DNA of 64,000 nt, taken from positions 1-64,000 of the forward strand of contig JBEKHC010000039.1 of the NCBI GenBank assembly GCA_050012475.1, read 5' to 3'. Positions 12,561 to 55,777 of this stretch are shown here, in pieces (position 1 is the stretch's first letter; each line of letters begins with the position of its first letter). The notes below the pieces were generated by a model. That model made no database searches. It saw only the letters and a list, made by a program, of their open reading frames with translations, and was not told where the DNA came from. The stretch is from Candidatus Velthaea sp. Lineage in GTDB: Bacteria > Vulcanimicrobiota > Vulcanimicrobiia > Vulcanimicrobiales > Vulcanimicrobiaceae. The translations under genes and the position numbers were made by a program.

Positions 12561-12606
12561 GAGAACGGTTGACAGGCCGGCTGACATGCTGGTACGGTAA
12601 ACTCCC

Positions 12607-12681
12607 ATGAAAGGTCAGATGATGTGCGCGGTGGTTTGTTGTTGCCCAACTGGGCTCCGGCGACGTTTCGCATTGGACTGA
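12607..12681 (+). CDS. Cys-rich attenuator leader peptide L1 (ssuACB)
   Basis: MKGQMMCAVVCCCPTGLRRRFALD*; TTGACA 12569-12574, TACGGT 12593-12598, ATG 8 nt later. Confidence 0.8.
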   Translation: MKGQMMCAVVCCCPTGLRRRFALD

Positions 12682-12704
12682 CGCCGAGCGTCAACCCGCC
12701 TGTG

Positions 12705-12740
12705 AAGCCCTCGCCCCAGCCGGCCGAGGGCTTTTTTCTT
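12705..12740 (+). terminator. Attenuator terminator L1
   Basis: AAGCCCTCG...CGAGGGCTT followed by TTTTCTT. Confidence 0.8.
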
Positions 12741-12777
12741 TCCCGTCTTTTCGTATGTAATCAAGGAGAATCTCCCA

Positions 12778-13761
12778 ATGAGCCTGGATCGACGCTCCTT
12801 CATCATCGCGGGCGCCGCGGGAACAGCGACGGTGCTGGTGCCGCGAATCGCGCGCGCTGCCGCTCCCGACCGCATCGCGCTCGACTATGCGTATTACAAT
12901 CCCGTCAGCCTCATCCTCAAGCAGAGCGGGTGGCTCGAAGGCGAGCTTGCGAAGCGCAAGACCGGCGTCGATTGGGTACTTTCGCTGGGCTCGAACAAGG
13001 CAAATCAGTTTTTGCAAGCCGGCGCCGTCCAATTCGCCTCGACGGCAGGCAGCGCCGCGTTTCTCGCGCGAGTCAACGGCACGCCGCTGCATACCGTCTT
13101 CCTTTACTCGCAGCCCGAATGGACGGCATTGGTCGTAAGCAAGGACAGCCCCATGGCAACGGTGCGCGATCTCAAGGGCAAAAGAGTCGCTGCGACGCGC
13201 GGAACGGACCCGTGGTTCTTCCTTTTGCGCTCGCTGCGCGAATTCGGGCTGGATGTCGCCGACATTCAACTCGTCGATTTACAACATCCCGATGGCCGCA
13301 TCGCACTCGAACGCGGCCAGGTCGATGCTTGGGCCGGACTCGACCCGCACATGGCGGCCTCGCAACTCGACGCCGGCTCCAAGCTGATCTACCGCAACGT
13401 CGCGTTCAACACGTTCGGTGCGCTCAACGTGCGCGAAGACTTCCTGCAAGCGCAGCCCGGGATCGTCGATGTCGTCCTGCGGGGTTACGACCGCGCTCGC
13501 CAGGCCGCACTCGCGAATCCCGATGCGACCGCGCAAACACTCGCGACCGCATCGAACGTCGAACCGCAAGTCGCGCAACTGGTGATTCGCGAGCGCACGA
13601 AATTCCCTGATCCGACACCCGGCCGCGCATTCGCCGATGCCATCGCCGGCGTCGTCCCGATCGTGCGCGCGGAGCATCTGACCGCCGCCGGCGCCGACCT
13701 CGACGGCGCGGCCGCGACGCTCGCCGAAGCTCGCTACGCCCAGGCAGCCGCAAAAGCGTGA
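12778..13761 (+). CDS. ssuA: Aliphatic sulfonate ABC substrate-binding protein (Tat signal)
   Basis: DRRSF signal, DYAYYNPVSL, GSNKA, DLKGKRVAATRGTDP, DAWAGLDP. Confidence 0.85.
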   Translation: MSLDRRSFIIAGAAGTATVLVPRIARAAAPDRIALDYAYYNPVSLILKQSGWLEGELAKRKTGVDWVLSLGSNKANQFLQAGAVQFASTAGSAAFLARVNGTPLHTVFLYSQPEWTALVVSKDSPMATVRDLKGKRVAATRGTDPWFFLLRSLREFGLDVADIQLVDLQHPDGRIALERGQVDAWAGLDPHMAASQLDAGSKLIYRNVAFNTFGALNVREDFLQAQPGIVDVVLRGYDRARQAALANPDATAQTLATASNVEPQVAQLVIRERTKFPDPTPGRAFADAIAGVVPIVRAEHLTAAGADLDGAAATLAEARYAQAAAKA

Positions 13762-14501
13762 AGTTCGTCGTCCCGATCGCGCTGGTGGTCGCGTGGTTCG
13801 CCGCGACTTCGACGGGCGCGATCAAATCGTACCAACTCGCCTCACCGCAAGCCGTGCTCGTCGAGCTGAACGATCTGGCCTCGCGCGGTCTGCTCTGGAC
13901 GGACCTCGGCGCGAGCCTCGAGCGCGTCGCGACCGGCTTCGCGCTTGCCGCGATGCTCGCGATCGTCCTCGGATCGCTGGTCGGCGCTTCAAGGATCGCG
14001 GAAAAGCTTCTCGATCCGACTTTACAGGCAATACGTTCGGTGCCGTCGCTCGCTTGGGTGCCGTTGTTGCTGTTGTGGCTTGGAATCGGAGAGACGGCGA
14101 AGATTGCGCTGGTCGCAATCGGTGCGTTCTTCCCGATATACGTTGCGCTGGCATCGGCAATCCGCAACGTCGATCGAAAGCTGGTCGAAGTCGCGCGCGT
14201 GCTCGGCGTGCGCGGGTTGCCGTTCATCGCGCGCGTGCTTCTGCCGGCGGCGCTGCCGCAACTGCTGGTCGGCTTGCGGATCGGCTTGACGCAAGCGTGG
14301 CTTTTTCTCGTCGCCGCGGAATTACTCGGCGCCTCGCGCGGTCTGGGATTTTTGCTCACTGACGGCCAGCAAATTGCGCGCACGGATGAGATTCTCGTCG
14401 CGATCCTTGCTTTTGCGATCTGCGGCAAACTCTCGGAGTCCGCAATGCGATTGCTCGAGCGGCGTCTGGTGGGCTGGACCGATACGGTGGTCGCACGTTG
14501 A
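13758..14501 (+). CDS. ssuC: Sulfonate ABC permease
   Basis: SVPSLAWVPL, EAA-like loop, LVAAELLGASRGLG. Confidence 0.85.
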   Translation: MKFVVPIALVVAWFAATSTGAIKSYQLASPQAVLVELNDLASRGLLWTDLGASLERVATGFALAAMLAIVLGSLVGASRIAEKLLDPTLQAIRSVPSLAWVPLLLLWLGIGETAKIALVAIGAFFPIYVALASAIRNVDRKLVEVARVLGVRGLPFIARVLLPAALPQLLVGLRIGLTQAWLFLVAAELLGASRGLGFLLTDGQQIARTDEILVAILAFAICGKLSESAMRLLERRLVGWTDTVVAR

Positions 14502-15169
14502 ACGCGATTACGATTCGCGGCTTAGTGAAGCGCTACGGCGCGCATATCATTTTCGACGGCCTCGATCTCAACGTCGCGCACGGCGAACGGCTGGCCGTGC
14601 TCGGGGCCAGCGGGTGCGGAAAGTCAACGCTTTTGCGCTGTATCGCGGGCCTCGAATCGTGGGAGGGTGGTGAGATCAGCGTCGCCGGCGAGATCGGCTA
14701 CGTTTTCCAGGAGCCCCGGCTGTTCGGTTGGCTCGACGTGGAGCGTAACGTCGCATTCGCGGCCCGGAATGCCGAAGAGAAAGCGCGCGTACCGGAGGTG
14801 CTGGCCCTCGTCGGTTTGACCTCCGCACGGTCCAAGCTGCCCAAGCACCTTTCCGGCGGGATGGCGCAGCGAGCGGCTCTTGCTCGCGCGCTGATCCGCA
14901 AGCCCGAGATATTGCTCTTCGACGAGCCCTTGGCGGCGCTCGACGCGCTCACGCGGCTCGAACTGCGGGCTTCGTTGCGCGAAATCCTGATCCAAGCGCG
15001 CGCTTCTGCCGTGTGGGTAACGCACGACGTCGACGATGCCCTGAGCCTCGCGACCCGCACGATCGTGCTCCAGCGGTCCTCCAATTACGTGCTGGCGGTC
15101 GAACCGGCGCTCGGCGTCGACGTTGGAGTCCGGCGAGCCTTGCTCGCTGCGCTGGGCGTTAGCGCCTAA
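14498..15169 (+). CDS. ssuB: Sulfonate ABC ATP-binding protein
   Basis: GASGCGKST, FQEPRL, LSGGMAQR, DEPLAALD. Confidence 0.85.
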   Translation: MNAITIRGLVKRYGAHIIFDGLDLNVAHGERLAVLGASGCGKSTLLRCIAGLESWEGGEISVAGEIGYVFQEPRLFGWLDVERNVAFAARNAEEKARVPEVLALVGLTSARSKLPKHLSGGMAQRAALARALIRKPEILLFDEPLAALDALTRLELRASLREILIQARASAVWVTHDVDDALSLATRTIVLQRSSNYVLAVEPALGVDVGVRRALLAALGVSA

Positions 15170-15397
15170 CGCGCAAGCACGCGTCCGGCACGACGTCGAC
15201 AGTCGAAGCCGGGAAGCATCATGTCGAACGGAGTGCTCGACGTCGCAACAAGTTTGTTTGTATCCGCGATCGTCGCTGGCGCGACGCTCGCGCTTTCCTC
15301 GAGACGCAAGTGGCGACGCGGCGCAACGAGTGGTGGTCAATCGACTTCGTTGACGACACGTTGTCGATGGACTACCGGTGATGATGAAAAGCCACAA

Positions 15398-15697
15398 CGC
15401 GGTGAGTTTGCTAGTGACAAGATGCTCAAATGGCCCAGCGATCATAACGTCGCGCTGCACTTCATCGATCCCGGCCGTCCTATGCATAATGCAAACGTGG
15501 AGTTTTTTTGGGGACGGCTAAGAGATGAGTTTTTGAACGAACACACCTTTCCGAAAATCTTCTACGACCGCAAGGCGATTGAAGAATGGCGGCGAGATTA
15601 TAACCACCATCGACCTCAGAGCATATTCGATGACTTGACGTCGAGTGCATTCTTGGAGGATCATTTCCGTATCAACCCACCGGAACAAGTGGCCTGA
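15398..15697 (+). mobile_element. Degenerate IS3-family transposase remnant (3' part of integrase core)
   Basis: GEFAS...HFIDPGRPMHNANVEFFWGRLRDEFLNEH...EEWRRDYNHHRPQS; 5' part missing. Confidence 0.75.
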
Positions 15698-19692: not shown

Positions 19693-19779
19693 GCGCGTCC
19701 AGTCGGACCGTTCCATGCCGCGGCGGTTCGAGCGAGGCGGTATTTGACACGCCTTAGCCGTGAATGGTATAAGCAACTC

Positions 19780-19851
19780 ATGCGTTTAATGGGGCTGTCC
19801 GCTGGCTGGTGTACGAGCTGCGCACGACAGGTTGACAGCGATCGCTTCTAG
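19780..19851 (+). CDS. Cys-containing attenuator leader peptide L2 (cbs)
   Basis: MRLMGLSAGWCTSCARQVDSDRF*; TTGACA 19744-19749, TATAAG 19768-19773, ATG 6 nt later. Confidence 0.7.
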   Translation: MRLMGLSAGWCTSCARQVDSDRF

Positions 19852-19885
19852 TCCGGCGTGGCGGACCCGACGGGTCCGTGTTCCC

Positions 19886-19922
19886 AGAAAGCCTCTCGCT
19901 GCGCCGAGAGGCTTTCTGTTTT
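19886..19922 (+). terminator. Attenuator terminator L2
   Basis: Perfect 13-bp stem AGAAAGCCTCTCG/CGAGAGGCTTTCT then GTTTT. Confidence 0.8.
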
Positions 19923-20059
19923 CTACAGTTGGGAGTTACCAGCGTGCCGCTTCAATCGATCACGAGCCGAACGCTTCAGGAGAAGCGCCTACGATCGGCA
20001 CGGCTTGTACAACGCTCAGCGCGGTCGGCATTTCGCCGGCTCGAAGGCGCGCAATATCA

Positions 20060-21445: not shown

Positions 21446-21570
21446 GTTCAAACACGCTTTCGCCCACCGTCCTAGCTGACGGCCTGTGGCAAAGCCGCAA
21501 AGGCGACCGCGGCTTGGCGCGAAGCGCCAAACGCCATGGATTTGCGGCGCGTTCAGCGCCGCGAATCCTG

Positions 21571-22152: not shown

Positions 22153-22242
22153 GGTTTTTCGTTCCTTGGTGAAAAGTGAAAGAGATGAAAATCTTCGATT
22201 CTCGCTTGACGACCGCCGGAGTCCTCCGCTACACTGACCACG

Positions 22243-22332
22243 ATGTTGGTTAGCAGTCGATCGATAGCTGCGAGTTGTCCGCCTTGTCACGATTCTTCGT
22301 TGACCGGCTTTGAAGTGTTCTCGATCGCTTAA
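22243..22332 (+). CDS. Cys-containing attenuator leader peptide L3 (sfnG-1)
   Basis: MLVSSRSIAASCPPCHDSSLTGFEVFSIA*; TTGACG 22206-22211, TACACT 22230-22235, ATG 7 nt later. Confidence 0.7.
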   Translation: MLVSSRSIAASCPPCHDSSLTGFEVFSIA

Positions 22333-22357
22333 TTTTCGAACGAAGCGACCAACAGAC

Positions 22358-22388
22358 GCCTTTCGCCGGCCGGTGGGAGGCTTTTTTA
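22358..22388 (+). terminator. Attenuator terminator L3
   Basis: GCCTTTCGCC/GGTGGGAGGC stem with GU pairs then T6. Confidence 0.75.
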
Positions 22389-22429
22389 TTTGCAGTCCGG
22401 GCCATCTGCCCGAGTGGAATGGAATATTG

Positions 22430-26705: not shown

Positions 26706-26748
26706 AAAAAAAGCGAAAACGAGCCGCTCTTGAGCGACTCGTGTTTCG
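26706..26748 (-). terminator. Attenuator terminator L4
   Basis: Minus strand CGAAACACGAGTCGCTC-AA-GAGCGGCTCGTTTTCG then C and T7. Confidence 0.75.
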
Positions 26749-26778
26749 GGAAACTATCGACCTTCGGAGATCGCTACG

Positions 26779-26892
26779 TCACGGGCGTGAAGACGCCTCC
26801 GACGACGTGCGAGTCGAGCGACAGATCCCGAACGCAACGCAACAACAGTTTGCGGCGGAGGCGTGGCGTTGAACGGCGAGTCTGCTTTTCAT
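26779..26892 (-). CDS. Cys-rich attenuator leader peptide L4 (sfnB-msuE-sfnG)
   Basis: MKSRLAVQRHASAANCCCVAFGICRSTRTSSEASSRP*; minus TTGACA 26953-26948, TAGTGT 26930-26925; GGGGA just before ATG. Confidence 0.75.
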   Translation of the reverse strand: MKSRLAVQRHASAANCCCVAFGICRSTRTSSEASSRP

Positions 26893-27091
26893 ATCCCCGA
26901 CAGCAAGCAACGAAAGTTGATGAAACACTAAATGCTGCAGACGTGGATGTCAACCCCATTGACCGAAGTGTGCAGCTACAGCTGTTCGCGGCATGTCGCA
27001 TCAGATGCCCGCCGGCGAAATTTACTTTCGGCTGCCTGTGATGGCCGGGCGCTTGACGGCGGCTGCGCCGCTCGCCTACAATGCGCCCAGC

Positions 27092-27187
27092 ATGTTTGCA
27101 CGTTCCATCTCCAGTTCGCACGCTTGCCCTGCTTGTTGTTGTCGGGAGTCTTTCGCTCCGCGGTGCAGGTGCGTCGTTTTCGCGTAG
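27092..27187 (+). CDS. Cys-rich attenuator leader peptide L5 (Liv-type ABC operon)
   Basis: MFARSISSSHACPACCCRESFAPRCRCVVFA*; TTGACG 27053-27058, TACAAT 27077-27082. Confidence 0.8.
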   Translation: MFARSISSSHACPACCCRESFAPRCRCVVFA

Positions 27188-27205
27188 TCTCGTAAGAGCT
27201 GCGTT

Positions 27206-27246
27206 GAGCGCCTCTCGCCGTGAGCCGAGGGGCGCTTTTCTTTTTT
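27206..27246 (+). terminator. Attenuator terminator L5
   Basis: GAGCGCCTCTCG/CGAGGGGCGCTT then TTCTTTTTT. Confidence 0.8.
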
Positions 27247-27330
27247 GCGGTCGCCGCGGCGTTTCTCGCCCTGGCCGGCCTTGGATTTCCTATTCGTTGC
27301 CCGTCCTCATAGGAGAGTTTGCGAAAGCCC

Positions 27331-31379: not shown

Positions 31380-31384
31380 TCGAC

Positions 31385-32182: not shown

Positions 32183-32305
32183 ACTCCGGTTCGATAGCTC
32201 TTGCGCGGCATTCGGATCGGCGTCCGATCTTCATCCCGGCGTTGAAGATTTGTCGCCTGACATTTGCTGCTGGACAACCGTGCCGACGTCACGTATAGTA
32301 GACGG

Positions 32306-32386
32306 ATGTTACGGATTGCCGTCTCCAACCTGCAATTGAATTCGACCCAATGGTGTCGGGTCCAGGCGTGGTTCATCATGCGCTGA
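32306..32386 (+). CDS. Single-Cys attenuator leader peptide L6 (sbp-xsc-HOT)
   Basis: MLRIAVSNLQLNSTQWCRVQAWFIMR*; TGGACA 32271-32276, TATAGT 32294-32299, ATG 6 nt later. Confidence 0.6.
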   Translation: MLRIAVSNLQLNSTQWCRVQAWFIMR

Positions 32387-32440
32387 CGTGCAGTCCGCGC
32401 GGACTTTCGAGCCGCGCTGCCAACAAATCTCTCGCTGATG

Positions 32441-32471
32441 ATCCCCGCGCCAGTATGGTGCGGGGATTTTT
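32441..32471 (+). terminator. Attenuator terminator L6
   Basis: ATCCCCGCGCCA/TGGTGCGGGGAT then TTTT. Confidence 0.75.
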
Positions 32472-32533
32472 CATTTTCGGGCCCCTCCCTGATTCCGGCT
32501 TGCGTCCCTGATGTGATACGAAACACGGAGCAT

Positions 32534-36668: not shown

Positions 36669-36726
36669 CGCAGCCTGCCGGACGGTGACAGTTGACATCG
36701 GGGACGACGGGATGCTAACCTGGCCC

Positions 36727-36804
36727 ATGGTCTTGTGCCTCCATCTTGCCCCGTGTCGTTGTCGTGCTTGGGTGTCGGTACGGAAGAGTGTTGTGCGCGG
36801 ATAG
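36727..36804 (+). CDS. Cys-rich attenuator leader peptide L7 (tauC pair)
   Basis: MVLCLHLAPCRCRAWVSVRKSVVRG*; TTGACA 36692-36697, TAACCT 36716-36721, ATG 5 nt later. Confidence 0.75.
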   Translation: MVLCLHLAPCRCRAWVSVRKSVVRG

Positions 36805-36829
36805 TTTCTGCGTTTTCTCCCTGCTGCGT

Positions 36830-36860
36830 AACCCTCTGCCAAGTCCGGCGGGGGGTTTTT
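36830..36860 (+). terminator. Attenuator terminator L7
   Basis: AACCCTCTGCC/GGCGGGGGGTT then TTT. Confidence 0.75.
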
Positions 36861-36889
36861 CCTTTCGCAGGTCCTGAAAGGCAGTCGTA

Positions 36890-37717: not shown

Positions 37718-38502
37718 GTCGCGTTGCTGCTCGTATCTTCTCCGGCGGCGAATGGCGTTTCACGCTCTTGAGCGTCGCGATTTTGGCGGCGGCGTGGGTG
37801 GCCGTTACCTCCAGCGGCCTCGTGCGCGATCTGTTCCTCCCGGGGCCGGCGCTGCTGTGGTCGGGGTTGGTCGATCTGGTCGAAAACGGCTACAAGAGCC
37901 GTCCGCTCTGGATGCACTTCGCCTTCAGCATCGAGCGAGTGCTGCTGGGCTTCGGAACCGGAGCGGTCTTCGGCATCGTGCTCGGTCTCGCGATGGGATA
38001 CTATCGCAGAGTCGACGCCATCTTCAGCCCGTACGTCGAGTTCTTGCGGCCGCTGCCGCAGCTTGCGTACCTGCTGCTGCTGATCGTTTGGTTCGGCATC
38101 GGCGAAACGCCGAAAATCGTCCTGCTCTTCCTTACGGCGTTCCCCGTCGCCGCGGTCGCAGCACGTGATGGGGTGCGCAACACGTCGCAGCTCCGCATCA
38201 AAGCGGCCCGCTCACTGGGCGCGAACGAATTCCAGATCTTTCGCTATGTGATCTTTCCATCGGCGCTCAGCGACATTTTCACCGGTGCGCGGCTGGCGAT
38301 CGGCATTGTCTATGCGACTTTGATCGCGGCCGAGATCATCGCGGGGAGCACCGGGATCGGCTGGATGGTGTTCGACGCAGGCCGCTACCTGCGATCCGAC
38401 TACGTTTTTGTCGGTATCGGCCTGATCGGACTTACGGGCTTAGCTCTCGATCGCCTGATTTTGTCGATCGAGAAGCGCACCGTCCACTGGGCCGGGAAGT
38501 GA
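37714..38502 (+). CDS. tauC: Taurine/sulfonate ABC permease 2
   Basis: RPLPQLAYL, WFGIGETPK, HWAGK. Confidence 0.8.
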   Translation: MSRVAARIFSGGEWRFTLLSVAILAAAWVAVTSSGLVRDLFLPGPALLWSGLVDLVENGYKSRPLWMHFAFSIERVLLGFGTGAVFGIVLGLAMGYYRRVDAIFSPYVEFLRPLPQLAYLLLLIVWFGIGETPKIVLLFLTAFPVAAVAARDGVRNTSQLRIKAARSLGANEFQIFRYVIFPSALSDIFTGARLAIGIVYATLIAAEIIAGSTGIGWMVFDAGRYLRSDYVFVGIGLIGLTGLALDRLILSIEKRTVHWAGK

Positions 38503-38537
38503 TTGACATGGCGTCCAACCGAGTGCTAATCTGGCTC

Positions 38538-38618
38538 ATGTACTCGCGCCCATGTCTCTGCCGGTGCTGCTGTTGCCTTTCGTTTCCGCGAACCCGGGAG
38601 AGTTTTGTGCGCACGTAA
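38538..38618 (+). CDS. Poly-Cys attenuator leader peptide L8 (tauAB)
   Basis: MYSRPCLCRCCCCLSFPRTRESFVRT*; TTGACA 38503-38508, TAATCT 38527-38532, ATG 5 nt later. Confidence 0.85.
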   Translation: MYSRPCLCRCCCCLSFPRTRESFVRT

Positions 38619-38645
38619 TTTTCAACGATTCATCTTCGTTGCGTG

Positions 38646-38677
38646 AACCCTCTGCCGAGTTCGGCGGAGGGTTTTTT
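38646..38677 (+). terminator. Attenuator terminator L8
   Basis: AACCCTCTGCCG/CGGCGGAGGGTT then TTTT. Confidence 0.85.
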
Positions 38678-38729
38678 GTTTCGCCGTTTTGTGAAGTTCA
38701 CACTTGAACGTCACGCTGAAAGGAAACTC

Positions 38730-44386: not shown

Positions 44387-44391
44387 TGCAA

Positions 44392-46426: not shown

Positions 46427-46595
46427 TCAACAAGCGGTCTTTCTGATCGAGAGAACCGGCGCTCAGATGGTCGAGCATCGCGTCGAGCGCTTTTAAGTCA
46501 GTACCGACATCGACGTTCAAGCCGGCGATTCGACCGCGTAGGCCGTGCCCGCTGGTCCGGTACCTTCGAGCCACACCGCAATGTCGCGTTTGGAA

Positions 46596-46636
46596 GAAAA
46601 ATGACGAAGCCCCTCACCGAACCGGCGAAGGGCTTC
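46596..46636 (-). terminator. Attenuator terminator L9
   Basis: Minus GAAGCCCTTCGCCG/CGGTGAGGGGCTTC then GTCATTTTTC (imperfect U tract). Confidence 0.6.
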
Positions 46637-46674
46637 TTCGCAGAATAGCGCGGTGCGCTAACCCGCGGTGAAAC

Positions 46675-46734
46675 TCACCGGCCCATTCGAAGGGGCCGGG
46701 TACACCACTGCGCTAACGCACGAGAGAGAAGCAT
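46675..46734 (-). CDS. Single-Cys attenuator leader peptide L9 (corrinoid operon)
   Basis: MLLSRALAQWCTRPLRMGR*; minus TTGACA 46773-46768, TACTAT 46749-46744, ATG 9 nt later. Confidence 0.6.
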   Translation of the reverse strand: MLLSRALAQWCTRPLRMGR

Positions 46735-47048
46735 TGCTTAATGATAGTAGCTGTTTGACGGTTCATGTGTCAAGCAGATGAATGCAGTTCTCAAACACAT
46801 GTGCTAAAGCAATTGCTATGCTTTATTGGAATTAAATCGTTTGCTCCGCATGTTGCCGGTTTGCTCGCTGCGCGCTTTCGACAGGGATGCCGCGCTGCAA
46901 CGAGCATTCGACGCTAACTTAGGGTCAACTATAATTTAACGTAGGGCCGACAAAATGCAAAATGCCGGCACCCATTATGCAATCGCTGCTTAACTACTTC
47001 ACGACGGAAGCGAACTTCCGGACGCGACGTACGAGCAGCTCCGCCTCT

Positions 47049-49592: not shown

Positions 49593-49638
49593 GACGAGAA
49601 AACTCCTTGCATGAGTGCGGGGTGAAATGACATGAAAT

Positions 49639-49668
49639 AAAAAAGCCCTCGACCGATCGGTAGAGGGC
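49639..49668 (-). terminator. Attenuator terminator L10
   Basis: Minus GCCCTCTACCG/CGGTCGAGGGC then T6. Confidence 0.8.
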
Positions 49669-49690
49669 AAAATCTTGCGCTCCCGCGTCT

Positions 49691-49768
49691 TTAGACGCGC
49701 GCAAACCTCTTCCGACCTATTATGGGCGCCGACGAACACCGACACATCGCGCTGGCGGAAGAACTCAT
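49691..49768 (-). CDS. Cys-containing attenuator leader peptide L10 (metQNI-1)
   Basis: MSSSASAMCRCSSAPIIGRKRFARV*; minus TTGACA 49804-49799, TAGCGT 49780-49775, ATG 6 nt later. Confidence 0.75.
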   Translation of the reverse strand: MSSSASAMCRCSSAPIIGRKRFARV

Positions 49769-50126
49769 GGCGCTACGCTACCATCCCGTTGCGCGGCGTG
49801 TCAACCATCGCCCACGCCAACGTTGCCTTTCCGCTCCAACTCGCCGGACCGCCGCGCAGCGAGATCGCAGCGCGCGGTGGTCTTTGCAGGCGCCACGTCA
49901 TTTCCGTGGGCGCAACATCGCGCTCGAATCCCAACCGCGCGAAATCGTGCGTAGCGACCAGGCCGCGCAGGACGAGCCTCCCATCGTTCGCGCGCTCAAG
50001 CGTGTCGGATTGACCGCGTTTGCGCGCCCGCGCGGGGACGGCCGAACGCTGTTCGAGATAAACGTTCGCCGGATGGGCGATCCGGCAGGCGGGTCCTCGC
50101 ACAGCCGCGTAAGTTGTCGCTCTGCA

Positions 50127-50207
50127 ATGTACCCATCCACTTTCTGTTGTGCTTGTCGGTGTTCGACTGCTCCATTGGGCACGCCGGTGAGGTATATGCG
50201 CGCTTAA
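50127..50207 (+). CDS. Cys-rich attenuator leader peptide L11 (FadL-DUF4395-cysK)
   Basis: MYPSTFCCACRCSTAPLGTPVRYMRA*; promoter not clearly seen. Confidence 0.75.
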   Translation: MYPSTFCCACRCSTAPLGTPVRYMRA

Positions 50208-50232
50208 GCGATCGTCGCAATTCAGCCCGTAC

Positions 50233-50268
50233 AAGCCCTCTACCGACCGTAGCGGGCTTTTTCTTTTT
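50233..50268 (+). terminator. Attenuator terminator L11
   Basis: AAGCCCTCTAC/GTAGCGGGCTT then TTTCTTTTT. Confidence 0.75.
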
Positions 50269-51605: not shown

Positions 51606-51612
51606 TGGAACG

Positions 51613-52074: not shown

Positions 52075-52202
52075 TCGAGTCTGGTCGCCGGTTCTCGGCA
52101 AAGTAATTCCCGAATCCTTAGCGCCCGCTCGCACGGCGCCGGCCGGATCATCGAGGCACTTGTGCGCAGGCGCCAATTCAGCGTTGCCCGTAGATTACGA
52201 CC

Positions 52203-53219
52203 ATGAACGCGAATGCAAACACCGGCGCAACGCACGGCTTTGTCGGTACGATCGGGAACACGCCGTTGATCGAACTGCCGAAACTATCGGCCGCGCTCGG
52301 ACGAACGATTCTCGGGAAGGCCGAATTCTTGAATCCCGGCGGGTCGGTAAAAGATCGCGCGGCGCGCGGCATTATCGAGGATTTCGAGCGCCGCGGTCTC
52401 CTCGTACCGGGCGGCACGGTCGTCGAAGGCACCGCCGGCAATACGGGCATTGGCCTGGCCCTGGTCGGCAACGCGCGCGGCTATCGCACGGTCATCGTCA
52501 TGCCCGACGATCAGGCCGAAGAGAAGTACGCACTGCTGCGAGCATATGGAGCGGATCTACACGTCGTCGAAGCCGCGCCGTTCACCAATGAAACGAAGAA
52601 CTACTACCACGTTGCTCGGCGACTGGCCGAATCGATCCCGGGCGCCGTGTGGGCGAATCAATTCGAGAACACCGCGAACTACGACGCCCACGAACGGACG
52701 ACCGGGCCGGAAATCTACGCGCAAGCTGGGGGCAACCTCACCGCCTTCGTCGCCGCCGCGGGAACCGGCGGGACCATCGCCGGCGTCGGCCGCGCCCTGC
52801 GCGAGCGAGATCCGCGCATCAAGATCGTACTCGCCGACCCATACGGCTCGGCGCTCTTCAACTACATCAAACACGGCAAGCTCGAAGCCGAAGGCGATTC
52901 GAATGCCGAAGGGATTGGAATCAAGCGGATCACCGCCAATTTCAGCGCCGCACCGATCGACGACGCTGTGCGCATCGACGATCGAACCATGGTCGAGATG
53001 GCGCACTGGCTCTTGCGGGAAGAAGGACTGTTTCTCGGTGGGTCAGCGGGTCTCAATGTCGCCGCCGCCGCCCGTTTTGCCGCGACACTGCCGGCCGGCA
53101 GCCGCATCGCCACGATCCTGTGCGACGGAGGCGACCGTTACCGTTCGCGCCTGTACGATAGCGCATGGTTAGCTGAAAACGGCGTCACTCCAACCGCGCA
53201 TGATCTCTCATTCCTCTGA
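52203..53219 (+). CDS. cysK: Cysteine synthase (O-acetylserine sulfhydrylase family)
   Basis: NPGGSVKDR, EGTAGNTG, WANQFEN, GTGGT, EEGLFLGGS, TILCD. Confidence 0.85.
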   Translation: MNANANTGATHGFVGTIGNTPLIELPKLSAALGRTILGKAEFLNPGGSVKDRAARGIIEDFERRGLLVPGGTVVEGTAGNTGIGLALVGNARGYRTVIVMPDDQAEEKYALLRAYGADLHVVEAAPFTNETKNYYHVARRLAESIPGAVWANQFENTANYDAHERTTGPEIYAQAGGNLTAFVAAAGTGGTIAGVGRALRERDPRIKIVLADPYGSALFNYIKHGKLEAEGDSNAEGIGIKRITANFSAAPIDDAVRIDDRTMVEMAHWLLREEGLFLGGSAGLNVAAAARFAATLPAGSRIATILCDGGDRYRSRLYDSAWLAENGVTPTAHDLSFL

Positions 53220-53561
53220 AAGTCCCGTTTCAAGCGTCCTGATGAAGATCATTGACCAGTCGTGTACGCTAGGCTCCCGTTGCGCGGCGCCTCAACGTTT
53301 GTGCATTTGCTGAAATCGCCGGGCACGAGCGTTCCAGGGCAGTGCGTTATCCGCTATATTGGACAAGCGGGAGGTTAAAGCGGAACCGAGCCCTTCTTCA
53401 TCACCCAAAATTCCGTTGTAGTGGACAGGATGGTATCGATGTCCCATTTGTAGCATTGTCTGCCCCTTACAAGCGCGTTACGATTGAATCACCAGCACGG
53501 CCAAGGTTGATGGTCGAGCAAACGAGACTATCGCTTTCCACAGCAAAAGGATGCTAAAACG

Positions 53562-53978
53562 ATGATGCCCGCGATGCAGATGCCGACGAACGGAATGATG
53601 AACCCCATGATGAGCATGCCGATGAACCCAATGATGAGCATGCCGATGAACCCGATGATGAACCCCATGATGATGAACGGCATGATGGGCATGCCGATGA
53701 ATCCGATGATGATGAACATGATGGGCATGCCGATGAATCCCATGATGATGAACGGCATGATGGGCATGCCAATGCCAATGCCGATGATGATGTGTACAAT
53801 GACCTGCGAGATGACGCCCGAAGGCATGGTCTGTACCATGAAGCCGATGGACGGCATGTCGATGGATATGATGAAAGACTGTTGCGAACGCATGAACGCA
53901 GCAATGTCGATGGGAATGCCCGCGATGATGATGTGTTCCAATATGCCCATGATGATGTGCATGCCCGCGAAGAAATAG
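53562..53978 (+). CDS. Extremely methionine-rich small protein with internal MPMNPMM repeats
   Basis: 138 aa, about 62 Met and 7 Cys by hand count; AAGGA RBS; own terminator. Confidence 0.75.
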   Translation: MMPAMQMPTNGMMNPMMSMPMNPMMSMPMNPMMNPMMMNGMMGMPMNPMMMNMMGMPMNPMMMNGMMGMPMPMPMMMCTMTCEMTPEGMVCTMKPMDGMSMDMMKDCCERMNAAMSMGMPAMMMCSNMPMMMCMPAKK

Positions 53979-54005
53979 CTGCCCGACGCACCTGGCGGCT
54001 TTTTT
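53977..54005 (+). terminator. Probable terminator of the Met-rich gene
   Basis: AGCTGCC/GGCGGCT then T5. Confidence 0.5.
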
Positions 54006-54364: not shown

Positions 54365-54940
54365 CTATCCGATCGGGTCGACGTATGTCATTACCAAAAA
54401 CATGAGCGCTTCGATTTGGCCGACATTTCGATAATGATGGGGAACGTCGGCATCGAAGAGAATCGCATCGCCGACTTCGAGAACGTGGAGTTGCGCCTCG
54501 ACCGCAATTTCCACAGTTCCCTTGCTGACCACTAAGTTCTCGACGGTTCCCGTCGCATGGGCTTCGGCTTTTTCCAGACCCTTCGAACTCAGGCGCAATT
54601 CGTAGAATTCGACTCTGCGTTGACTATCGAAAGGGAACAACGCTCGCGACGTAAACTCCCGCGAACTCGATATCAGGACTTTCGAGTCGGCTGCTTTTAA
54701 TACCGTGGGACCGTGGCTGTGCGGTCCGCCGGTGAGGGCAGATAGCGGAATCTCCAGCGCTCTTGCGACTTTCCAAAGCAGGTTGATCGTCGGAGCACTG
54801 CGTCCCAGTTCAATTTGGCCGAGCATCGCCCGGCTGACGCCGGAGATTTGCGCGAGACGCTCGAGCGAGTATCCGCGGCGGGATCGCAGCAGCCGCAAAT
54901 TATGGCCGACGACTGCCGAAAGATCCTCTTCATCGGCCAA
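54365..54940 (-). CDS. XRE-cupin transcriptional regulator (SutR/YdcN-like)
   Basis: SGVSRAMLGQIELGRSAPTINLLWKVA HTH; AHATGTVE...GDAILFDADVPHHYRN cupin. Confidence 0.85.
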   Translation of the reverse strand: MADEEDLSAVVGHNLRLLRSRRGYSLERLAQISGVSRAMLGQIELGRSAPTINLLWKVARALEIPLSALTGGPHSHGPTVLKAADSKVLISSSREFTSRALFPFDSQRRVEFYELRLSSKGLEKAEAHATGTVENLVVSKGTVEIAVEAQLHVLEVGDAILFDADVPHHYRNVGQIEALMFLVMTYVDPIG

Positions 54941-54952
54941 CGTGACGACTAA

Positions 54953-55120
54953 CTAAAAGGGCCGATTGAACGCGAACGCGTACGGCAGCGGCATCCAGAC
55001 ATAGCACCACATGACCGGCATGACGGCTGTGCGCGGCTGAGCTGCGGCAAGCTTCGCTTCTTCCCGGCGGCGCCGATATGCTTCGAGGTCGTGAACCACT
55101 GCCAGGGTGGCGGATGCCAT
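54953..55120 (-). CDS. 55-aa hypothetical protein upstream of the XRE regulator
   Basis: MASATLAVVHDLEAYRRRREE...VMPVMWCYVWMPLPYAFAFNRPF; GGAGA RBS; directly after terminator L12. Confidence 0.6.
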   Translation of the reverse strand: MASATLAVVHDLEAYRRRREEAKLAAAQPRTAVMPVMWCYVWMPLPYAFAFNRPF

Positions 55121-55166
55121 TTCATTCTCTCCGAGGGTGCAACGTGAAGTGCGGCGGCGGATCCGC

Positions 55167-55202
55167 AAAAAAGAACCTCTCGCCGACGGACGAGAGGTTC
55201 TT
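55167..55202 (-). terminator. Attenuator terminator L12
   Basis: Minus AAGAACCTCTCG/CGAGAGGTTCTT then TTTT. Confidence 0.85.
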
Positions 55203-55234
55203 GGAACTCGCTGCTTGACGCTACGAGAGCACGC

Positions 55235-55297
55235 CTAGTCCAAACGGCTCGCTATGAGCTTCCCAGGGCGACAGCGTCGACACAACATGCTTTCCAT
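55235..55297 (-). CDS. Cys-containing attenuator leader peptide L12 (small ORF and XRE)
   Basis: MESMLCRRCRPGKLIASRLD*; minus TTGACG 55333-55328, TAGATT 55310-55305, ATG 7 nt later. Confidence 0.75.
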   Translation of the reverse strand: MESMLCRRCRPGKLIASRLD

Positions 55298-55651
55298 CCA
55301 GCGTAATCTATCATGTGCCCCAACCAACGTCAATCGCTTTGGACGTAAAGCCTTACCCGAGACGCGGCTCCCCATGTCCAGTCAGATGATAGCTCCATCT
55401 CGATAGCCAGCCGGGCGGCAAGATGAGCGCGCGCCCGGAAACCCAACGGCGCCGAGACCCCGTCGGCGTTGCGGGACGGAGCGCTCAAGCCGGTAAGACT
55501 CTCGGTAGCAACCTTCCCGGGGCCGCCGTTCACGGTTCACGCTGCCGGCGGCCGGCGGCCGGTGCGGCCAGCCCCGGGTTCCGGCATCTTACTGCCGGCA
55601 GCTTGCCCGTCAACCTTGACGTCCGGAACCGGCGATGGTACTATGCCCTGC

Positions 55652-55717
55652 ATGAACGTTGCGAGCGCATCGTCGTGTTGCCGTTGTCTCGGTCCCTCAC
55701 CCGGCGTAGCGGCATGA
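55652..55717 (+). CDS. Cys-rich attenuator leader peptide L13 (metNIQ-2)
   Basis: MNVASASSCCRCLGPSPGVAA*; TTGACG 55616-55621, TACTAT 55639-55644, ATG 7 nt later. Confidence 0.8.
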   Translation: MNVASASSCCRCLGPSPGVAA

Positions 55718-55747
55718 CTTGATCGCAGCAGCGTGCGACTCTTGAGC

Positions 55748-55777
55748 GCCCTCGCCAAAACGGTTGAGGGCTTTTTT
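55748..55777 (+). terminator. Attenuator terminator L13
   Basis: GCCCTCGCC/GGTTGAGGGC then T6. Confidence 0.75.

What the first reader, a model, noticed from the sequence alone, without database searches (positions are those of the whole stretch)
12569..55777. Island-wide cysteine-sensing attenuation regulon: 13 Cys-containing short ORFs with intrinsic terminators
Seen: 13 leaders in front of sulfur-related operons share one layout: a 19-37 codon ORF with 1-6 Cys codons, then within about 20-55 nt a GC hairpin (often GCCCTC..GAGGGC-like) and a U-rich tail before the first gene. Twelve have a clear -35/-10 pair at 17-18 nt spacing; in 11 the ATG lies only 5-9 nt after the -10, i.e. leaderless or nearly so. 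None is called as its own ORF in the supplied track. Known: poly-Cys leaderless short ORFs attenuate cysteine genes in mycobacteria, and trp/his-type attenuators use leader plus terminator. Inference: here attenuation takes over the role of a CysB/Cbl/SfnR/CymR-type regulator across a whole organosulfur-scavenging regulon, which I do not know as a described system.
Basis: partly seen in the sequence, partly recalled or inferred. Interest (0 to 1): 0.95.

Follow-up and report, generated by a model that had tools for sequence, protein, structure and literature searches.

The report
Cysteine-sensing leader-peptide attenuators on sulfur operons
Thirteen sulfur-uptake and sulfur-scavenging operons in this soil bacterium each begin with a tiny cysteine-codon reading frame and a transcription stop signal, most likely a ribosome-based switch that turns the genes on when cysteine runs short; the principle is known, but not at this scale or in this phylum.

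Summary
In detail: all 13 cassettes are there. Each has a 19-37-codon ORF with 1-6 Cys codons, then, 18-53 nt later, a 9-17-bp GC hairpin with a T-run. 12 of 13 have a TTGACN/TAnnnT promoter; in 11 the ATG lies 5-9 nt after the -10.

This is not chance.
- TGY triplets lie in the sORF frame (82 vs 25 and 17).
- Cys is 14% of residues against 1.15% in long ORFs.
- The rare codon TGT makes up 58 of 82 Cys codons against 17% genome-wide.

Folding gives a classical switch. The terminator's 5' arm pairs with the 3' end of the sORF when a ribosome is parked on the Cys codons. It does not when the ribosome sits at the stop. The same holds in 38 leaders of relatives.

The set is genome-wide, not island-wide: 12 more Cys leaders precede cysH, sulfite reductase, cysE, tcyJLN, sulP and others. 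The same cassette with Leu, branched-chain or Phe codons precedes leuA, ilvC, ilvB and pheA.

The organism belongs to Eremiobacterota; related genomes carry 1-12 such leaders.

Verdict: ribosome-mediated transcription attenuation, a new variant of a known kind. No expression data. This scan noted Cys leaders before in other phyla.

The parts
12565..12742 (+). Leader W1. -35 TTGACA at 12569, -10 TACGGT, ATG at 12607. sORF MKGQMMCAVVCCCPTGLRRRFALD (12607-12681). Terminator 12704-12734 plus T-run. Controls an SsuA-family binding protein, permease and ATPase (12778-15169).
   Evidence: gene names; antiterminator z -4.3
19738..19926 (+). Leader W2. TTGACA-18-TATAAG. sORF MRLMGLSAGWCTSCARQVDSDRF (19780-19851). 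Terminator 19885-19918. Controls cystathionine beta-synthase (20060-21445).
   Evidence: The orthologues in G001-G003 and the second own copy on C81 lack the leader.
22201..22393 (+). Leader W3. TTGACG-18-TACACT. sORF MLVSSRSIAASCPPCHDSSLTGFEVFSIA (22243-22332). Terminator 22354-22385. Controls SfnG-type dimethylsulfone monooxygenase (22430-23527).
26708..26953 (-). Leader W4. TTGACA-17-TAGTGT, then about 30 nt of 5' UTR. sORF MKSRLAVQRHASAANCCCVAFGICRSTRTSSEASSRP (26892-26779). Terminator 26745-26716. Controls SfnB, an MsuE-type FMN reductase and SfnG (26622-23663).
   Evidence: Not leaderless; antiterminator not better than shuffles (z 0.2).
27050..27245 (+). Leader W5. TTGACG-18-TACAAT. sORF MFARSISSSHACPACCCRESFAPRCRCVVFA (27092-27187). 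Terminator 27206-27237. Controls a five-gene Liv-type ABC transporter (27319-32182) of unknown substrate.
   Evidence: z -3.6
32264..32476 (+). Leader W6. TGGACA-17-TATAGT. sORF MLRIAVSNLQLNSTQWCRVQAWFIMR (32306-32386; 1 Cys). Terminator 32440-32468. Controls the sulfate-binding protein (32534-33655), a split Xsc gene and an Fe-ADH (to 36668).
   Evidence: Only one Cys codon and a weak antiterminator (4 of 13).
36685..36865 (+). Leader W7. TTGACA-18-TAACCT. sORF MVLCLHLAPCRCRAWVSVRKSVVRG (36727-36804). Terminator 36830-36857. Controls two ABC permeases (36890-38502).
   Evidence: Clearly a paralogue of W8.
38496..38682 (+). Leader W8. TTGACA-18-TAATCT. sORF MYSRPCLCRCCCCLSFPRTRESFVRT (38538-38618). 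Terminator 38645-38674. Controls a TauA-like binding protein and an ATPase (to 40586).
46595..46776 (-). Leader W9. TTGACA-18-TACTAT. sORF MLLSRALAQWCTRPLRMGR (46734-46675; 1 Cys). Terminator 46639-46603. Controls a small Cys-rich ferredoxin-like ORF, a corrinoid protein, three MtaA/CmuA-type methyltransferases and RACo (46133-40588).
   Evidence: z -3.9
49637..49810 (-). Leader W10. TTGACA-18-TAGCGT. sORF MSSSASAMCRCSSAPIIGRKRFARV (49768-49691). Terminator 49668-49645. Controls metQ, metN and metI (49640-47049).
   Evidence: Orthologous leaders stand before MetQ in G155 and G144.
50085..50267 (+). Leader W11. No clear promoter. sORF MYPSTFCCACRCSTAPLGTPVRYMRA (50127-50207). Terminator 50233-50259. 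Controls a FadL-like outer-membrane protein, DUF4395 and cysteine synthase A (50313-53219).
   Evidence: z -0.1
55164..55339 (-). Leader W12. TTGACG-17-TAGATT. sORF MESMLCRRCRPGKLIASRLD (55297-55235). Terminator 55201-55172. Controls an HTH_3/cupin regulator (54940-54365).
55610..55779 (+). Leader W13. TTGACG-17-TACTAT. sORF MNVASASSCCRCLGPSPGVAA (55652-55717). Terminator 55748-55771. Controls metN, metI and metQ (55807-58106).
   Evidence: Paralogue of leader O2 at C39:71163.

Best explanation
Each cassette is a ribosome-mediated transcription attenuator that senses charged tRNA-Cys.

How it works:
1. Transcription starts at, or within about 3 nt of, the sORF's AUG, so the leader peptide is translated from a leaderless or nearly leaderless mRNA.
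2. When Cys-tRNA is plentiful, the ribosome runs to the stop codon. There it covers the last 10-25 nt of the sORF. The GC hairpin plus U-run 18-53 nt downstream forms, and RNA polymerase terminates before the operon.
3. When Cys-tRNA is scarce, the ribosome stalls on the Cys codons, 18-57 nt before the stop. These codons are mostly the rare, wobble-read UGU.
4. The freed 3' end of the sORF then pairs with the 5' arm of the terminator as an antiterminator, and transcription reads through.

About 25 operons share this sensor and so form one regulon. They cover:
- sulfate uptake and reduction;
- cysE and cysK;
- cystine and methionine import;
- sulfonate, taurine and dimethylsulfone scavenging;
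- a corrinoid methyltransferase system;
- an encapsulin with a cysteine desulfurase cargo;
- two extra tRNA-Cys genes.

What is shown: the cassette anatomy, the codon statistics, the predicted alternative pairings, the conservation, and the matching of regulatory codons to downstream genes. What is inferred: the transcription start sites, translation of the sORFs, termination, and any response to cysteine.
For: 1. Anatomy. 13 of 13 cassettes are in the window and 12 more lie elsewhere in the genome.

2. Codon-level selection.
- TGY by frame is 82/25/17 in the 25 sORFs, and Cys is 14% of 584 residues.
- Cys is 1.15% of codons in ORFs over 400 aa. TGT is 58 of 82 leader Cys codons, against 2,533 of 14,814 (17%) in long ORFs (binomial p about 1e-26).
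- Relatives show the same pattern: 122/51/14 by frame, and TGT 81 vs TGC 41.
- All three tRNA-Cys genes have anticodon GCA, so UGU is read by wobble.

3. The switch in the 25 own leaders.
- With the ribosome footprint on the Cys cluster, a mean of 8.8 nt of the terminator 5' arm pair upstream. The figure is 6.8 in 300 dinucleotide shuffles and 4.1 with the ribosome at the stop (Wilcoxon p 4e-5 and 1.5e-3).
- 214 of 219 partner bases lie where a terminating ribosome would sit.
- Energy z is below 0 in 21 of 25 and below -2 in 8; Stouffer Z is -8.1.

4. Replication in 38 Cys leaders from other genomes: z is below 0 in 37 of 38 and below -2 in 27. Pairing is 9.8 (stalled) vs 4.4 (at stop) vs 7.6 (shuffles).

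5. Cognate logic.
- In the own genome the same layout with Leu, branched-chain or Phe codons precedes leuA, ilvC, ilvB and pheA.
- Of the 29 best-per-genome hits in relatives, 20 are Cys or Met+Cys leaders. They precede MetQ x2, NMT1 binding proteins x5, CysK-type PALP x1, TauE x2, Cys/Met PLP enzymes x3, sulfite reductase, PAPS reductase, homoserine dehydrogenase, an ABC ATPase, DUF3034, and 2 genes with no family.
- The other 9 are branched-chain-rich leaders before ilvB x3 and ilvC x2, aromatic-rich leaders before PDT-DAHP x2, a Trp-rich leader before trpD, and 1 unclear.
- 40 more hits from 6 genomes show the same matching, including a Thr leader before homoserine dehydrogenase and Ile leaders before PALP enzymes.

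6. Conservation. Cys leaders stand before sir or cysH-sir in G003, G001, G007 and G016 (2 copies), and before ssuA-like genes in G003 and G001. The peptides differ apart from the Cys codons.

7. Targets. 19 of the 25 downstream operons carry a gene with a clear sulfur role by family name.

8. No Rfam family reaches gathering score in any leader; the only hit in the window is a fluoride riboswitch at 5009-5072.
Against: - No experimental support. The two RNA runs that hold parts of the stretch are kept only as short contigs and show neither starts nor ends.
- The simple three-element fold does not explain W4, W6, W7, W11, W12, O3 and O7 better than shuffles (z between -0.8 and +1.3).
- W6 and W9 have a single Cys codon. 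10 of 25 leaders lack two adjacent Cys codons.
- W11 and O12 have no recognisable promoter, and W4 is not leaderless.
- 6 of 25 downstream operons have no evident sulfur link: the Liv-type ABC transporter, the corrinoid methyltransferases, the HTH-cupin regulator, a PhnD-like binding protein, and two unknowns.
- Several sulfur genes have no leader: the FMN reductase at 21571-22290 (-), a second cysE-cysS pair on C3, and the cystathionine beta-synthase copy on C81.
- The leaders are partly paralogous (W7/W8, W13/O2), so they are not 25 independent observations.
- The long-ORF codon baseline was taken from raw ORFs over 400 aa, not from curated genes.
- The assembly is a 204-contig draft with 5.3% estimated contamination.
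Confidence: 0.85

Rival explanations
1. Translational attenuation as in mycobacteria. [quoted passage not shown] The hairpins would act mainly on translation or mRNA stability, not on termination.
For: The closest experimentally studied system (Ms5788A) works this way (10.1101/834739, abstract and discussion read). In some cassettes the hairpin lies close to the first gene; for example the long ORF at W8 begins within the hairpin region.
Against: - Every one of the 25 hairpins is followed at once by a T-run, as in intrinsic terminators.
- The first gene's start usually lies 30-230 nt beyond the T-run, with its own Shine-Dalgarno-like sequence outside the hairpin. An example is AAGGAGA before 12778.
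- The Actinobacterial Cys leaders were noted for lacking terminators (PMC1262725, passages read).
Confidence: 0.07
2. The leaders are RNA or protein-binding switches, such as an unknown riboswitch for a sulfur metabolite or an RNA-binding antiterminator protein. The short ORFs would be incidental and untranslated.
For: Sulfur operons in other phyla use SAM riboswitches and T-boxes (established knowledge). One leader-controlled gene encodes a DNA-binding regulator.
Against: - No Rfam family matches in any leader.
- The TGY in-frame excess and the TGT bias are properties of a reading frame, not of an aptamer.
- The sequence between start and terminator is not conserved among orthologous leaders apart from the Cys codons and the pairing segments.
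- The same scaffold switches its regulatory codons with the pathway it precedes.
Confidence: 0.04
3. The short ORFs encode functional cysteine-rich micropeptides, such as metal or redox peptides or precursors of modified peptides. They would be co-transcribed with sulfur genes, and the hairpins would be ordinary partial terminators.
For: Cys-rich small proteins exist and can be stable (PMC13096801, abstract).
Against: - Peptide sequences are not conserved beyond Cys.
- There are 25 different peptides in one genome.
- Each terminator's 5' arm is complementary to the sORF's own 3' end.
- The analogous Leu, Phe, Thr and Trp versions make no sense as functional peptides.
Confidence: 0.02
4. Chance: Cys-containing ORFs arising from TG-rich, GC-rich intergenic sequence next to ordinary terminators.
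For: Weak terminator-like and promoter-like sites are no more frequent than in shuffles. Random ORFs in 64% GC DNA are expected to hold about 3% Cys (my estimate from base composition).
Against: - Frame-specific TGY excess (82/25/17).
- 22 sORFs with 3 or more Cys before strong leader terminators, against 2-10 for the other two-codon residues.
- Association with sulfur genes, and conservation across genera.
Confidence: 0.01

Closest known systems
Polycysteine leaderless short ORFs of mycobacteria (Ms5788A and five further loci, the 'Cys ribulon'; Canestrari et al., 10.1101/834739; abstract and discussion read)
   Same: - Leaderless sORFs with Cys codons as the first cistron of cysteine and sulfur operons.
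- Ribosome stalling on Cys codons relieves repression.
- Several operons are coordinated without a dedicated transcription factor.
   Different: - In mycobacteria the shown mechanism is translational (unmasking of the ribosome-binding site), and no intrinsic terminator is involved. Here every cassette has a hairpin plus U-run and a competing antiterminator.
- Six responsive loci there, against about 25 here.
- Different phylum (Actinomycetota vs Eremiobacterota).
- 10 of 25 leaders here lack adjacent Cys codons.
Classical leader-peptide transcription attenuators of amino-acid operons (trpL, hisL, leuL, thrL, pheL, ilvL of Proteobacteria; established knowledge, summarised in PMC4007540 and PMC1262725)
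   Same: A short ORF with regulatory codons, an intrinsic terminator, and an alternative pairing set by ribosome position. The same family of cassettes here also serves leuA, ilvB, ilvC and pheA.
   Different: - The classical ones start with a Shine-Dalgarno-led leader and a 1:2/2:3/3:4 four-segment fold. Here the sORF starts at or next to the transcript's 5' end, and a three-segment fold suffices (sORF 3' end, terminator 5' arm, terminator 3' arm).
- No classical Cys attenuator for biosynthesis or scavenging operons was found in print in my searches.
- One amino acid controls about 25 operons.
Leaderless leader peptides of Deinococcus deserti (14 predicted, including a 10-aa peptide with two Cys before cysS; PMC4007540, passages read)
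   Same: [quoted passage not shown] The predicted mechanism is transcription attenuation, and one example has Cys codons.
   Different: There is a single Cys example there, before the tRNA synthetase gene and not before sulfur assimilation or scavenging genes. It is in a different phylum. There the TSS was mapped; here it is only inferred.
uORFC-8-2 motif of Rhodobacterales (Cys-Cys uORF plus terminator before cysS; PMC8632094, passage read)
   Same: A uORF with tandem Cys codons inside a stem, followed by an intrinsic terminator. The proposed sensing is by ribosome stalling.
   Different: That motif is restricted to cysS, is not leaderless, has a conserved structure as a single motif, and forms no regulon.
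CysB/Cbl (Proteobacteria), CymR (Bacillota) and SfnR regulons, and the S-box / T-box(Cys) RNA switches: functional analogues (established knowledge)
   Same: The same target set: sulfate uptake and reduction, cysE/cysK, cystine and methionine transport, and ssu/tau/sfn scavenging genes.
   Different: Those use DNA-binding proteins, metabolite-binding RNAs or tRNA-binding RNAs. Here the sensor is the translating ribosome. No CysB-family protein reaches the cut-off in this genome, and no riboswitch or T-box is found in the leaders.

Membership tests
Leader-peptide transcription attenuators (classical kind) | Short ORF in the 5' leader, enriched in codons of the amino acid whose pathway it controls | tested here: met
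   Cys is 14% of residues. TGY in frame is 82, against 25 and 17 in the other frames. 19 of 25 downstream operons carry sulfur genes.
Leader-peptide transcription attenuators (classical kind) | Intrinsic terminator between the leader ORF and the first structural gene | tested here: met
   25 of 25 have stems of 9-18 bp followed by T-runs, 18-53 nt after the stop. The terminator is in the minimum-free-energy fold of the full leader in 24 of 25, with at least 7 of its pairs.
Leader-peptide transcription attenuators (classical kind) | Alternative antiterminator pairing whose formation depends on where the ribosome sits | tested here: met
   In silico only. 5'-arm pairing is 8.8 (stalled) vs 4.1 (at stop) vs 6.8 (shuffles); Stouffer Z is -8.1 in 25 own leaders and -14.3 in 38 leaders of relatives. 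7 own leaders are individually no better than shuffles.
Leader-peptide transcription attenuators (classical kind) | Read-through rises when the cognate aminoacyl-tRNA is scarce | not testable with these tools
   Uncultured organism. The RNA runs are available only as contigs.
Mycobacterial polyCys leaderless sORF attenuators ('Cys ribulon') | sORF translated from a leaderless mRNA (5' AUG/GUG) | tested here: inconclusive
   In 11 of 13 window leaders and 22 of 25 genome leaders the start codon is 5-10 nt after a TAnnnT -10 box. That fits a start at or within about 3 nt of the AUG. No TSS data.
Mycobacterial polyCys leaderless sORF attenuators ('Cys ribulon') | At least two consecutive Cys codons (criterion used in 10.1101/834739) | tested here: inconclusive
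   15 of 25 leaders have CC or longer runs; 10 have only spaced Cys.
Mycobacterial polyCys leaderless sORF attenuators ('Cys ribulon') | [quoted passage not shown] | tested here: not met
   All cassettes carry a hairpin plus T-run well upstream of the next start codon. It works like this system in its sensing, but not in its output.
Known RNA families (SAM riboswitches, T-box, Rfam leader families) | Match to a curated covariance model at gathering score | tested here: not met
   The Rfam 15 scan of the whole window finds only the fluoride riboswitch at 5009-5072.

The most novel reading that the evidence does not exclude
In this Eremiobacterota lineage, ribosome-mediated attenuation has become the master regulator of sulfur metabolism and stands in for a CysB- or CymR-type protein. 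One sensor design has been copied to about 25 operons, which would be the largest single-amino-acid attenuation regulon I know of. It is tuned by rare wobble-read UGU codons. It is also wired to its own input, because two extra tRNA-Cys genes sit inside attenuated operons: one lies directly between a Cys leader's terminator and sulP. Cysteine starvation would therefore also raise the amount of the tRNA that the sensor reads. Together with polyCys sORF-plus-terminator cassettes upstream of sulfite reductase genes in at least five other phyla (21 of 80 loci), this would make Cys attenuation a widespread, largely undescribed mode of sulfur control.
Probability: 0.35. Interest if true: 0.8.

Novelty: new variant of a known kind. 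Interest (0 to 1): 0.62.

Why it matters
If true, a whole nutrient-stress regulon is coordinated with no dedicated regulatory protein. It would cover sulfate assimilation, cysteine synthesis, import of cystine, methionine, sulfonates and taurine, dimethylsulfone oxidation, an encapsulated cysteine desulfurase and extra tRNA-Cys genes. Coordination would come simply from copying a cassette of about 180 nt in front of each operon.

That extends the mycobacterial 'ribulon' idea in three ways: to transcription termination, to a mostly uncultured phylum of peat and soil, and to a roughly four-fold larger set of operons.

It also has practical uses.
- The cassettes flag genes of unknown role as parts of the sulfur-starvation response. 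Examples are the Liv-type ABC transporter, the corrinoid methyltransferase system, the FadL-like porin with DUF4395, the HTH-cupin regulator and two unknown proteins.
- They give gene callers a class of real but uncalled ORFs.
- The rare-codon bias and the tRNA-Cys genes inside attenuated operons offer testable ideas on how such sensors are tuned.

Tried and rejected
- Expression evidence. The look-up of sequencing runs found 18 DNA holders, labelled peat or soil metagenomes. It found only two metatranscriptome runs, each with 7% of the sampled words and both kept as contigs. Laying them gave short RNA contigs inside some genes (for example 38703-38894, 51523-51778, 54878-55131) but nothing on starts, ends or read-through. 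I draw no conclusion from it.
- Synteny of the island. A 20-kb DNA search in the genus matched only the cystathionine beta-synthase gene and the ssuABC-like genes. Ortholog-by-ortholog comparison of all 13 leaders was therefore not possible. The cystathionine beta-synthase orthologues turned out to lack a leader.
- Extra candidates rejected for lack of a terminator: the sORF at 53242-53313 (MKIIDQSCTLGSRCAAPQRLCIC) and the one near 18065-18170 (...ATECCFPAV...).
- My first greedy gene call and several ORF starts were wrong (cystathionine beta-synthase, sbp, metQ). They were corrected after the leaders were seen.
- The first terminator pick for O7 was wrong and was redone.
- The covariance model R1 was trained on the own leaders, so finding them again is not evidence. 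Only its new hits count.
- R1 did not recover W4, W11, O12 or the leuA leader. Under the stricter filters of the phylum search it recovered only 17 own leaders, so the per-genome counts in relatives are lower bounds.
- Regulator searches cannot show that no protein regulator exists.
- Earlier notes of this scan describe Cys leaders in Acidobacteria, Acidimicrobiia, Chitinophagales and Clostridia. I treat them as leads only.

Full report
**What is in the window.** The window is the first 64 kb of a 103-kb contig (C39) of a 5.36-Mb, 204-contig draft genome with 64% G+C.

Pfam and NCBIfam scans show that 12.7-58 kb is packed with sulfur genes:
- an SsuA-family ABC transporter;
- cystathionine beta-synthase;
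- two SfnG dimethylsulfone monooxygenases with SfnB and MsuE-type FMN reductases;
- a Liv-type ABC transporter;
- the sulfate-binding protein, followed by a split Xsc gene and an Fe-alcohol dehydrogenase;
- a TauA-type ABC transporter;
- a corrinoid protein with three MtaA/CmuA methyltransferases and RACo;
- two metNIQ sets;
- a FadL-like protein with DUF4395 and cysteine synthase A.

The best named relatives of its sulfite reductase are 'Candidatus Elarobacter' and Eremiobacteraeota MAGs, so the organism belongs to Eremiobacterota (WPS-2). Near-identical DNA is held by runs labelled peat and soil metagenomes.

Reading the intergenic regions, a promoter-plus-start scan of the genome and a terminator-anchored scan give exactly 13 cassettes between 12569 and 55779. 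Their coordinates are listed under parts.
- The sORFs have 19-37 codons and 1-6 Cys.
- The hairpins are 9-17 bp, GC-rich and followed by T-runs. They start 18-53 nt after the stop.
- 12 of 13 have TTGACN (once TGGACA), 17-18 nt, then TAnnnT (once TATAAG). W11 has no recognisable promoter.
- In 11 of 13 the ATG lies 5-9 nt after the -10, which puts the expected start site at or within about 3 nt of the AUG. W4 has about 30 nt of 5' UTR.
- The generic consensus scan finds no excess of weak promoter-like or terminator-like sites. Nearly all long stems it lists (10 or more pairs) are these leader hairpins.

**It is not chance.**
- In the 25 Cys sORFs of the genome, TGY triplets occur 82 times in the sORF frame and 25 and 17 times in the other two frames.
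- Cys makes up 14% of 584 residues, against 1.15% of codons in ORFs over 400 aa.
- 58 of the 82 Cys codons are TGT, although TGT is only 17% of Cys codons in long ORFs (2,533 of 14,814; binomial p about 1e-26).
- All three tRNA-Cys genes carry anticodon GCA. The leaders therefore prefer the rare codon that is read by wobble, as expected if slow decoding is selected.
- Of the genome's 448 strong terminators, 253 have no long ORF just upstream and a gene downstream. sORFs with 3 or more Cys occur at 22 of these. For the other two-codon residues the counts are 2-10.

**The regulon is genome-wide.** Twelve more Cys cassettes lie outside the window. Their downstream genes were named by NCBIfam.
- On the same contig: ssuCBA-tauD; an unknown 340-aa protein; an SsuA-like gene with O-acetylhomoserine sulfhydrylase and ABC genes; a PaaK-like ligase followed by a family 2A encapsulin and its cysteine desulfurase cargo; and cysE.
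- On other contigs: a divergent pair before cysH-cysC and before sulfite reductase; the cystine transporter tcyJLN; a second O-acetylhomoserine sulfhydrylase; sulP; a PhnD-like binding protein; and an unknown 179-aa protein.

By family name, 19 of the 25 operons hold a sulfur gene, and 6 are unclear.

**tRNA-Cys genes sit inside the regulon.** Two of the three tRNA-Cys genes lie inside these units. One lies about 20 nt after the terminator of the sulP leader and just before sulP. The other lies 115 nt after tauD, with no hairpin in between.

**The same device serves other amino acids.** A covariance model built from 22 own Cys leaders found three further full-length matches in the own genome:
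- MSVAGRSLSLLGLLALLTGQRAALL before ilvC;
- MNSSLVLVVSLRLAVLIGRRAAFT before ilvB;
- ...RFPFFFFADTT... before pheA.

The promoter scan had already found MKGSMRVLALRELLSGSLQE before leuA.

The model was then run over 151 Eremiobacterota genomes (strict filters).
- It hit 50 genomes: 42 of 71 in the own family, 6 of 16 in family f20, 1 of 1 in f5, and none in the other families sampled.
- There were 1-12 matches per genome, against 17 for the own genome under the same filters.

I read the best hit of each of 29 genomes and 40 more hits from six genomes and named the first downstream gene with Pfam. The regulatory codons track the pathway.
- Cys or Met+Cys leaders precede MetQ, NMT1-type binding proteins, CysK-type enzymes, TauE, Cys/Met PLP enzymes, PAPS reductase, sulfite reductase and nitrogenase-like Oxidored_nitro genes.
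- Leaders rich in branched-chain residues precede ilvB, ilvC and leuA.
- Ile-rich leaders precede a PALP enzyme.
- A Thr-rich leader (ITTTMTMTTT) precedes homoserine dehydrogenase.
- Aromatic-rich leaders precede prephenate dehydratase or EPSP synthase.
- A Trp-rich leader (WCWW) precedes trpD.

This cognate logic is the strongest argument that these are leader-peptide attenuators.

**How the switch would work.** For each leader I folded the RNA up to the loop of the terminator, with the nucleotides under a ribosome made unpairable.

With the ribosome on the last Cys codon of the main cluster:
- A mean of 8.8 nt of the terminator's 5' arm pair with upstream sequence, against 6.8 in 300 dinucleotide shuffles of the intervening segment.
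- 214 of the 219 partner bases lie no further than 14 nt past the first base of the stop codon, that is, under a ribosome that has reached the stop.

With the ribosome at the stop, only 4.1 nt pair.

Energies beat the shuffles in 21 of 25 leaders (z below -2 in 8; Stouffer Z -8.1). The Cys cluster ends 18-57 nt before the stop, far enough for the antiterminator strand to be free during a stall.

The same analysis on 38 Cys leaders of other genomes gave z below 0 in 37 and below -2 in 27 (Stouffer -14.3). It also reproduced the in-frame TGY excess (122/51/14) and the TGT preference (81 vs 41).

So the design has three segments: the sORF 3' end, the terminator 5' arm and the terminator 3' arm. 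It is simpler than the four-segment trp attenuator. Seven own leaders (W4, W6, W7, W11, W12, O3, O7) are not explained better than shuffles by this simple model.

**Conservation and turnover.**
- Orthologous sir or cysH-sir operons carry Cys leaders in two genomes of the genus and two of the family, one of them with two copies. Orthologous ssuA-like operons carry them in two genomes of the genus. The peptides are otherwise unrelated.
- The remaining three sir loci read have sir directly behind cysH, so any leader would lie further upstream and was not examined.
- Some leaders are evident paralogues (W7/W8, W13/O2).
- The island's cystathionine beta-synthase has a leader. Its orthologues in three genomes of the genus, and a second own copy, do not.
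- Most of 12.4-32.4 kb has no DNA match in the genus.

The cassette thus looks like a mobile regulatory module. It has been placed in front of newly acquired or duplicated sulfur genes and is most expanded in this genome, the largest of its family among those listed.

**Is a protein regulator replaced?**
- No CysB-family member reaches the curated cut-off (best 114.6 vs 402 bits). That best match is a LysR gene ending 50 nt before the tcy leader.
- Sigma-54-activator matches are weak and partial.
- One full-length Rrf2 protein exists.
- One Cys leader controls an HTH-cupin regulator.

Replacement is therefore plausible but not shown.

**What is known.**
- Canestrari et al. (10.1101/834739; abstract and discussion read) showed that polyCys leaderless sORFs attenuate six cysteine loci in Mycobacterium smegmatis by unmasking a ribosome-binding site. 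They coined 'ribulon', and they left open whether other loci are transcriptional.
- Seliverstov et al. (PMC1262725; passages read) had noted Cys leader peptides without terminators in Actinobacteria.
- De Groot et al. (PMC4007540; passages read) predicted 14 leaderless leader peptides for transcription attenuation in Deinococcus deserti, one with two Cys before cysS.
- Brewer et al. (PMC8632094; passage read) described a Cys-Cys uORF plus terminator before cysS in Rhodobacterales.

My full-text searches found no Cys leader-terminator regulon for sulfur assimilation or scavenging genes, and nothing on attenuation in this phylum. The search terms were: polycysteine/leaderless/attenuat; leader peptide/cysteine codons/attenuation/terminator; Eremiobacter with leader peptide, or with attenuat and cysteine; cysteine/leader peptide/transcription attenuation/sulfate assimilation; ribulon; Cys codons/attenuat/leader.

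The library lacks most subscription journals, so this is not proof of absence.

Earlier notes of this scan report Cys leaders in Acidobacteria, Acidimicrobiia, Chitinophagales and Clostridia. In my own check, 21 of 80 named sulfite reductase loci have a polyCys sORF plus terminator within 1.2 kb upstream. These loci come from Eremiobacterota, Verrucomicrobiota, Planctomycetota, Gemmatimonadota, Balneolales and Bacteroidales. The principle therefore seems widespread and under-described.

**Verdict.** It is a new variant of a known kind. The sensing is as in mycobacteria and the output is as in classical attenuators. It has a leaderless start, sits in a new phylum, and reaches an unusual scale of about 25 operons, including two tRNA-Cys genes.

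All evidence is computational. Transcript ends, translation of the sORFs and the response to cysteine remain to be shown.

Noticed in passing
window 53562-53978 (+): A 138-aa ORF of about 45% methionine plus 8 Cys, with MNPMM / GMPMNPMMM repeats. It has a Shine-Dalgarno-like AAAGGA upstream and a hairpin with T-run after the stop. No Pfam or NCBIfam family matches. ESM Atlas places it near unnamed clusters of 120-150 aa in Myxococcota and Pseudomonadota. It has the highest RNA-contig depth of the 19 kb laid. It could be a sulfur or methionine store or a metal binder. The opposite-strand ORF 53528-53962 is probably spurious.
   Followed up: partly
G000:C61:5000-5070 (+) and G000:C39:65828-65900 (-) (L001:1828-1900): Two of the genome's three tRNA-Cys(GCA) genes lie inside Cys-leader-controlled units. 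One is between the leader's terminator and sulP. The other is 115 nt after tauD. The third (C49) sits beside another tRNA gene.
   Followed up: partly
window 21480-21580: A repeat of about 65-95 nt just after the cystathionine beta-synthase gene. It recurs in more than 30 places of the own genome at 85-98% identity and weakly in G003. It looks like a MITE or REP-type element.
   Followed up: no
window 33580-34137 and 34245-35351 (+): Sulfoacetaldehyde acetyltransferase (Xsc) is split into two ORFs that match positions 1-166 and 205-588 of the family model. This is a frameshifted pseudogene or an assembly error.
   Followed up: no
window 5009-5072 (+): A fluoride riboswitch (47.3 bits; gathering score 34) ahead of an Mrp/NADH-dehydrogenase-like cluster (5182-12416) and near two DUF190 genes.
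   Followed up: no
window 15221-15697 (+): An integrase-core (rve_3) fragment right after the first leader-controlled ABC operon. Together with the lack of synteny in the genus, it suggests the island was assembled by gene gain.
   Followed up: no
L006:3974-4402 (-) = G000:C61: A VapC-family PIN toxin gene lies next to, and divergent from, the leader/tRNA-Cys/sulP locus. In M. tuberculosis VapC4 cleaves tRNA-Cys and causes stalling at Cys codons (PMC13096801, abstract). Whether there is a link here was not tested.
   Followed up: no
L001:15486-18280 and L002:154-459 (G000:C39:79486-84459): A Cys leader precedes a PaaK-like CoA ligase, which is followed by a family 2A encapsulin shell gene and its cysteine desulfurase cargo. 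This places the nanocompartment in the predicted cysteine-starvation regulon.
   Followed up: partly
L178 and L180 (G144:C2): In a related genome, two Cys leaders (…FAECCCPRR…, …PAPCCCPPV…) precede nitrogenase-like Oxidored_nitro genes. These may be sulfur-salvage reductases.
   Followed up: no
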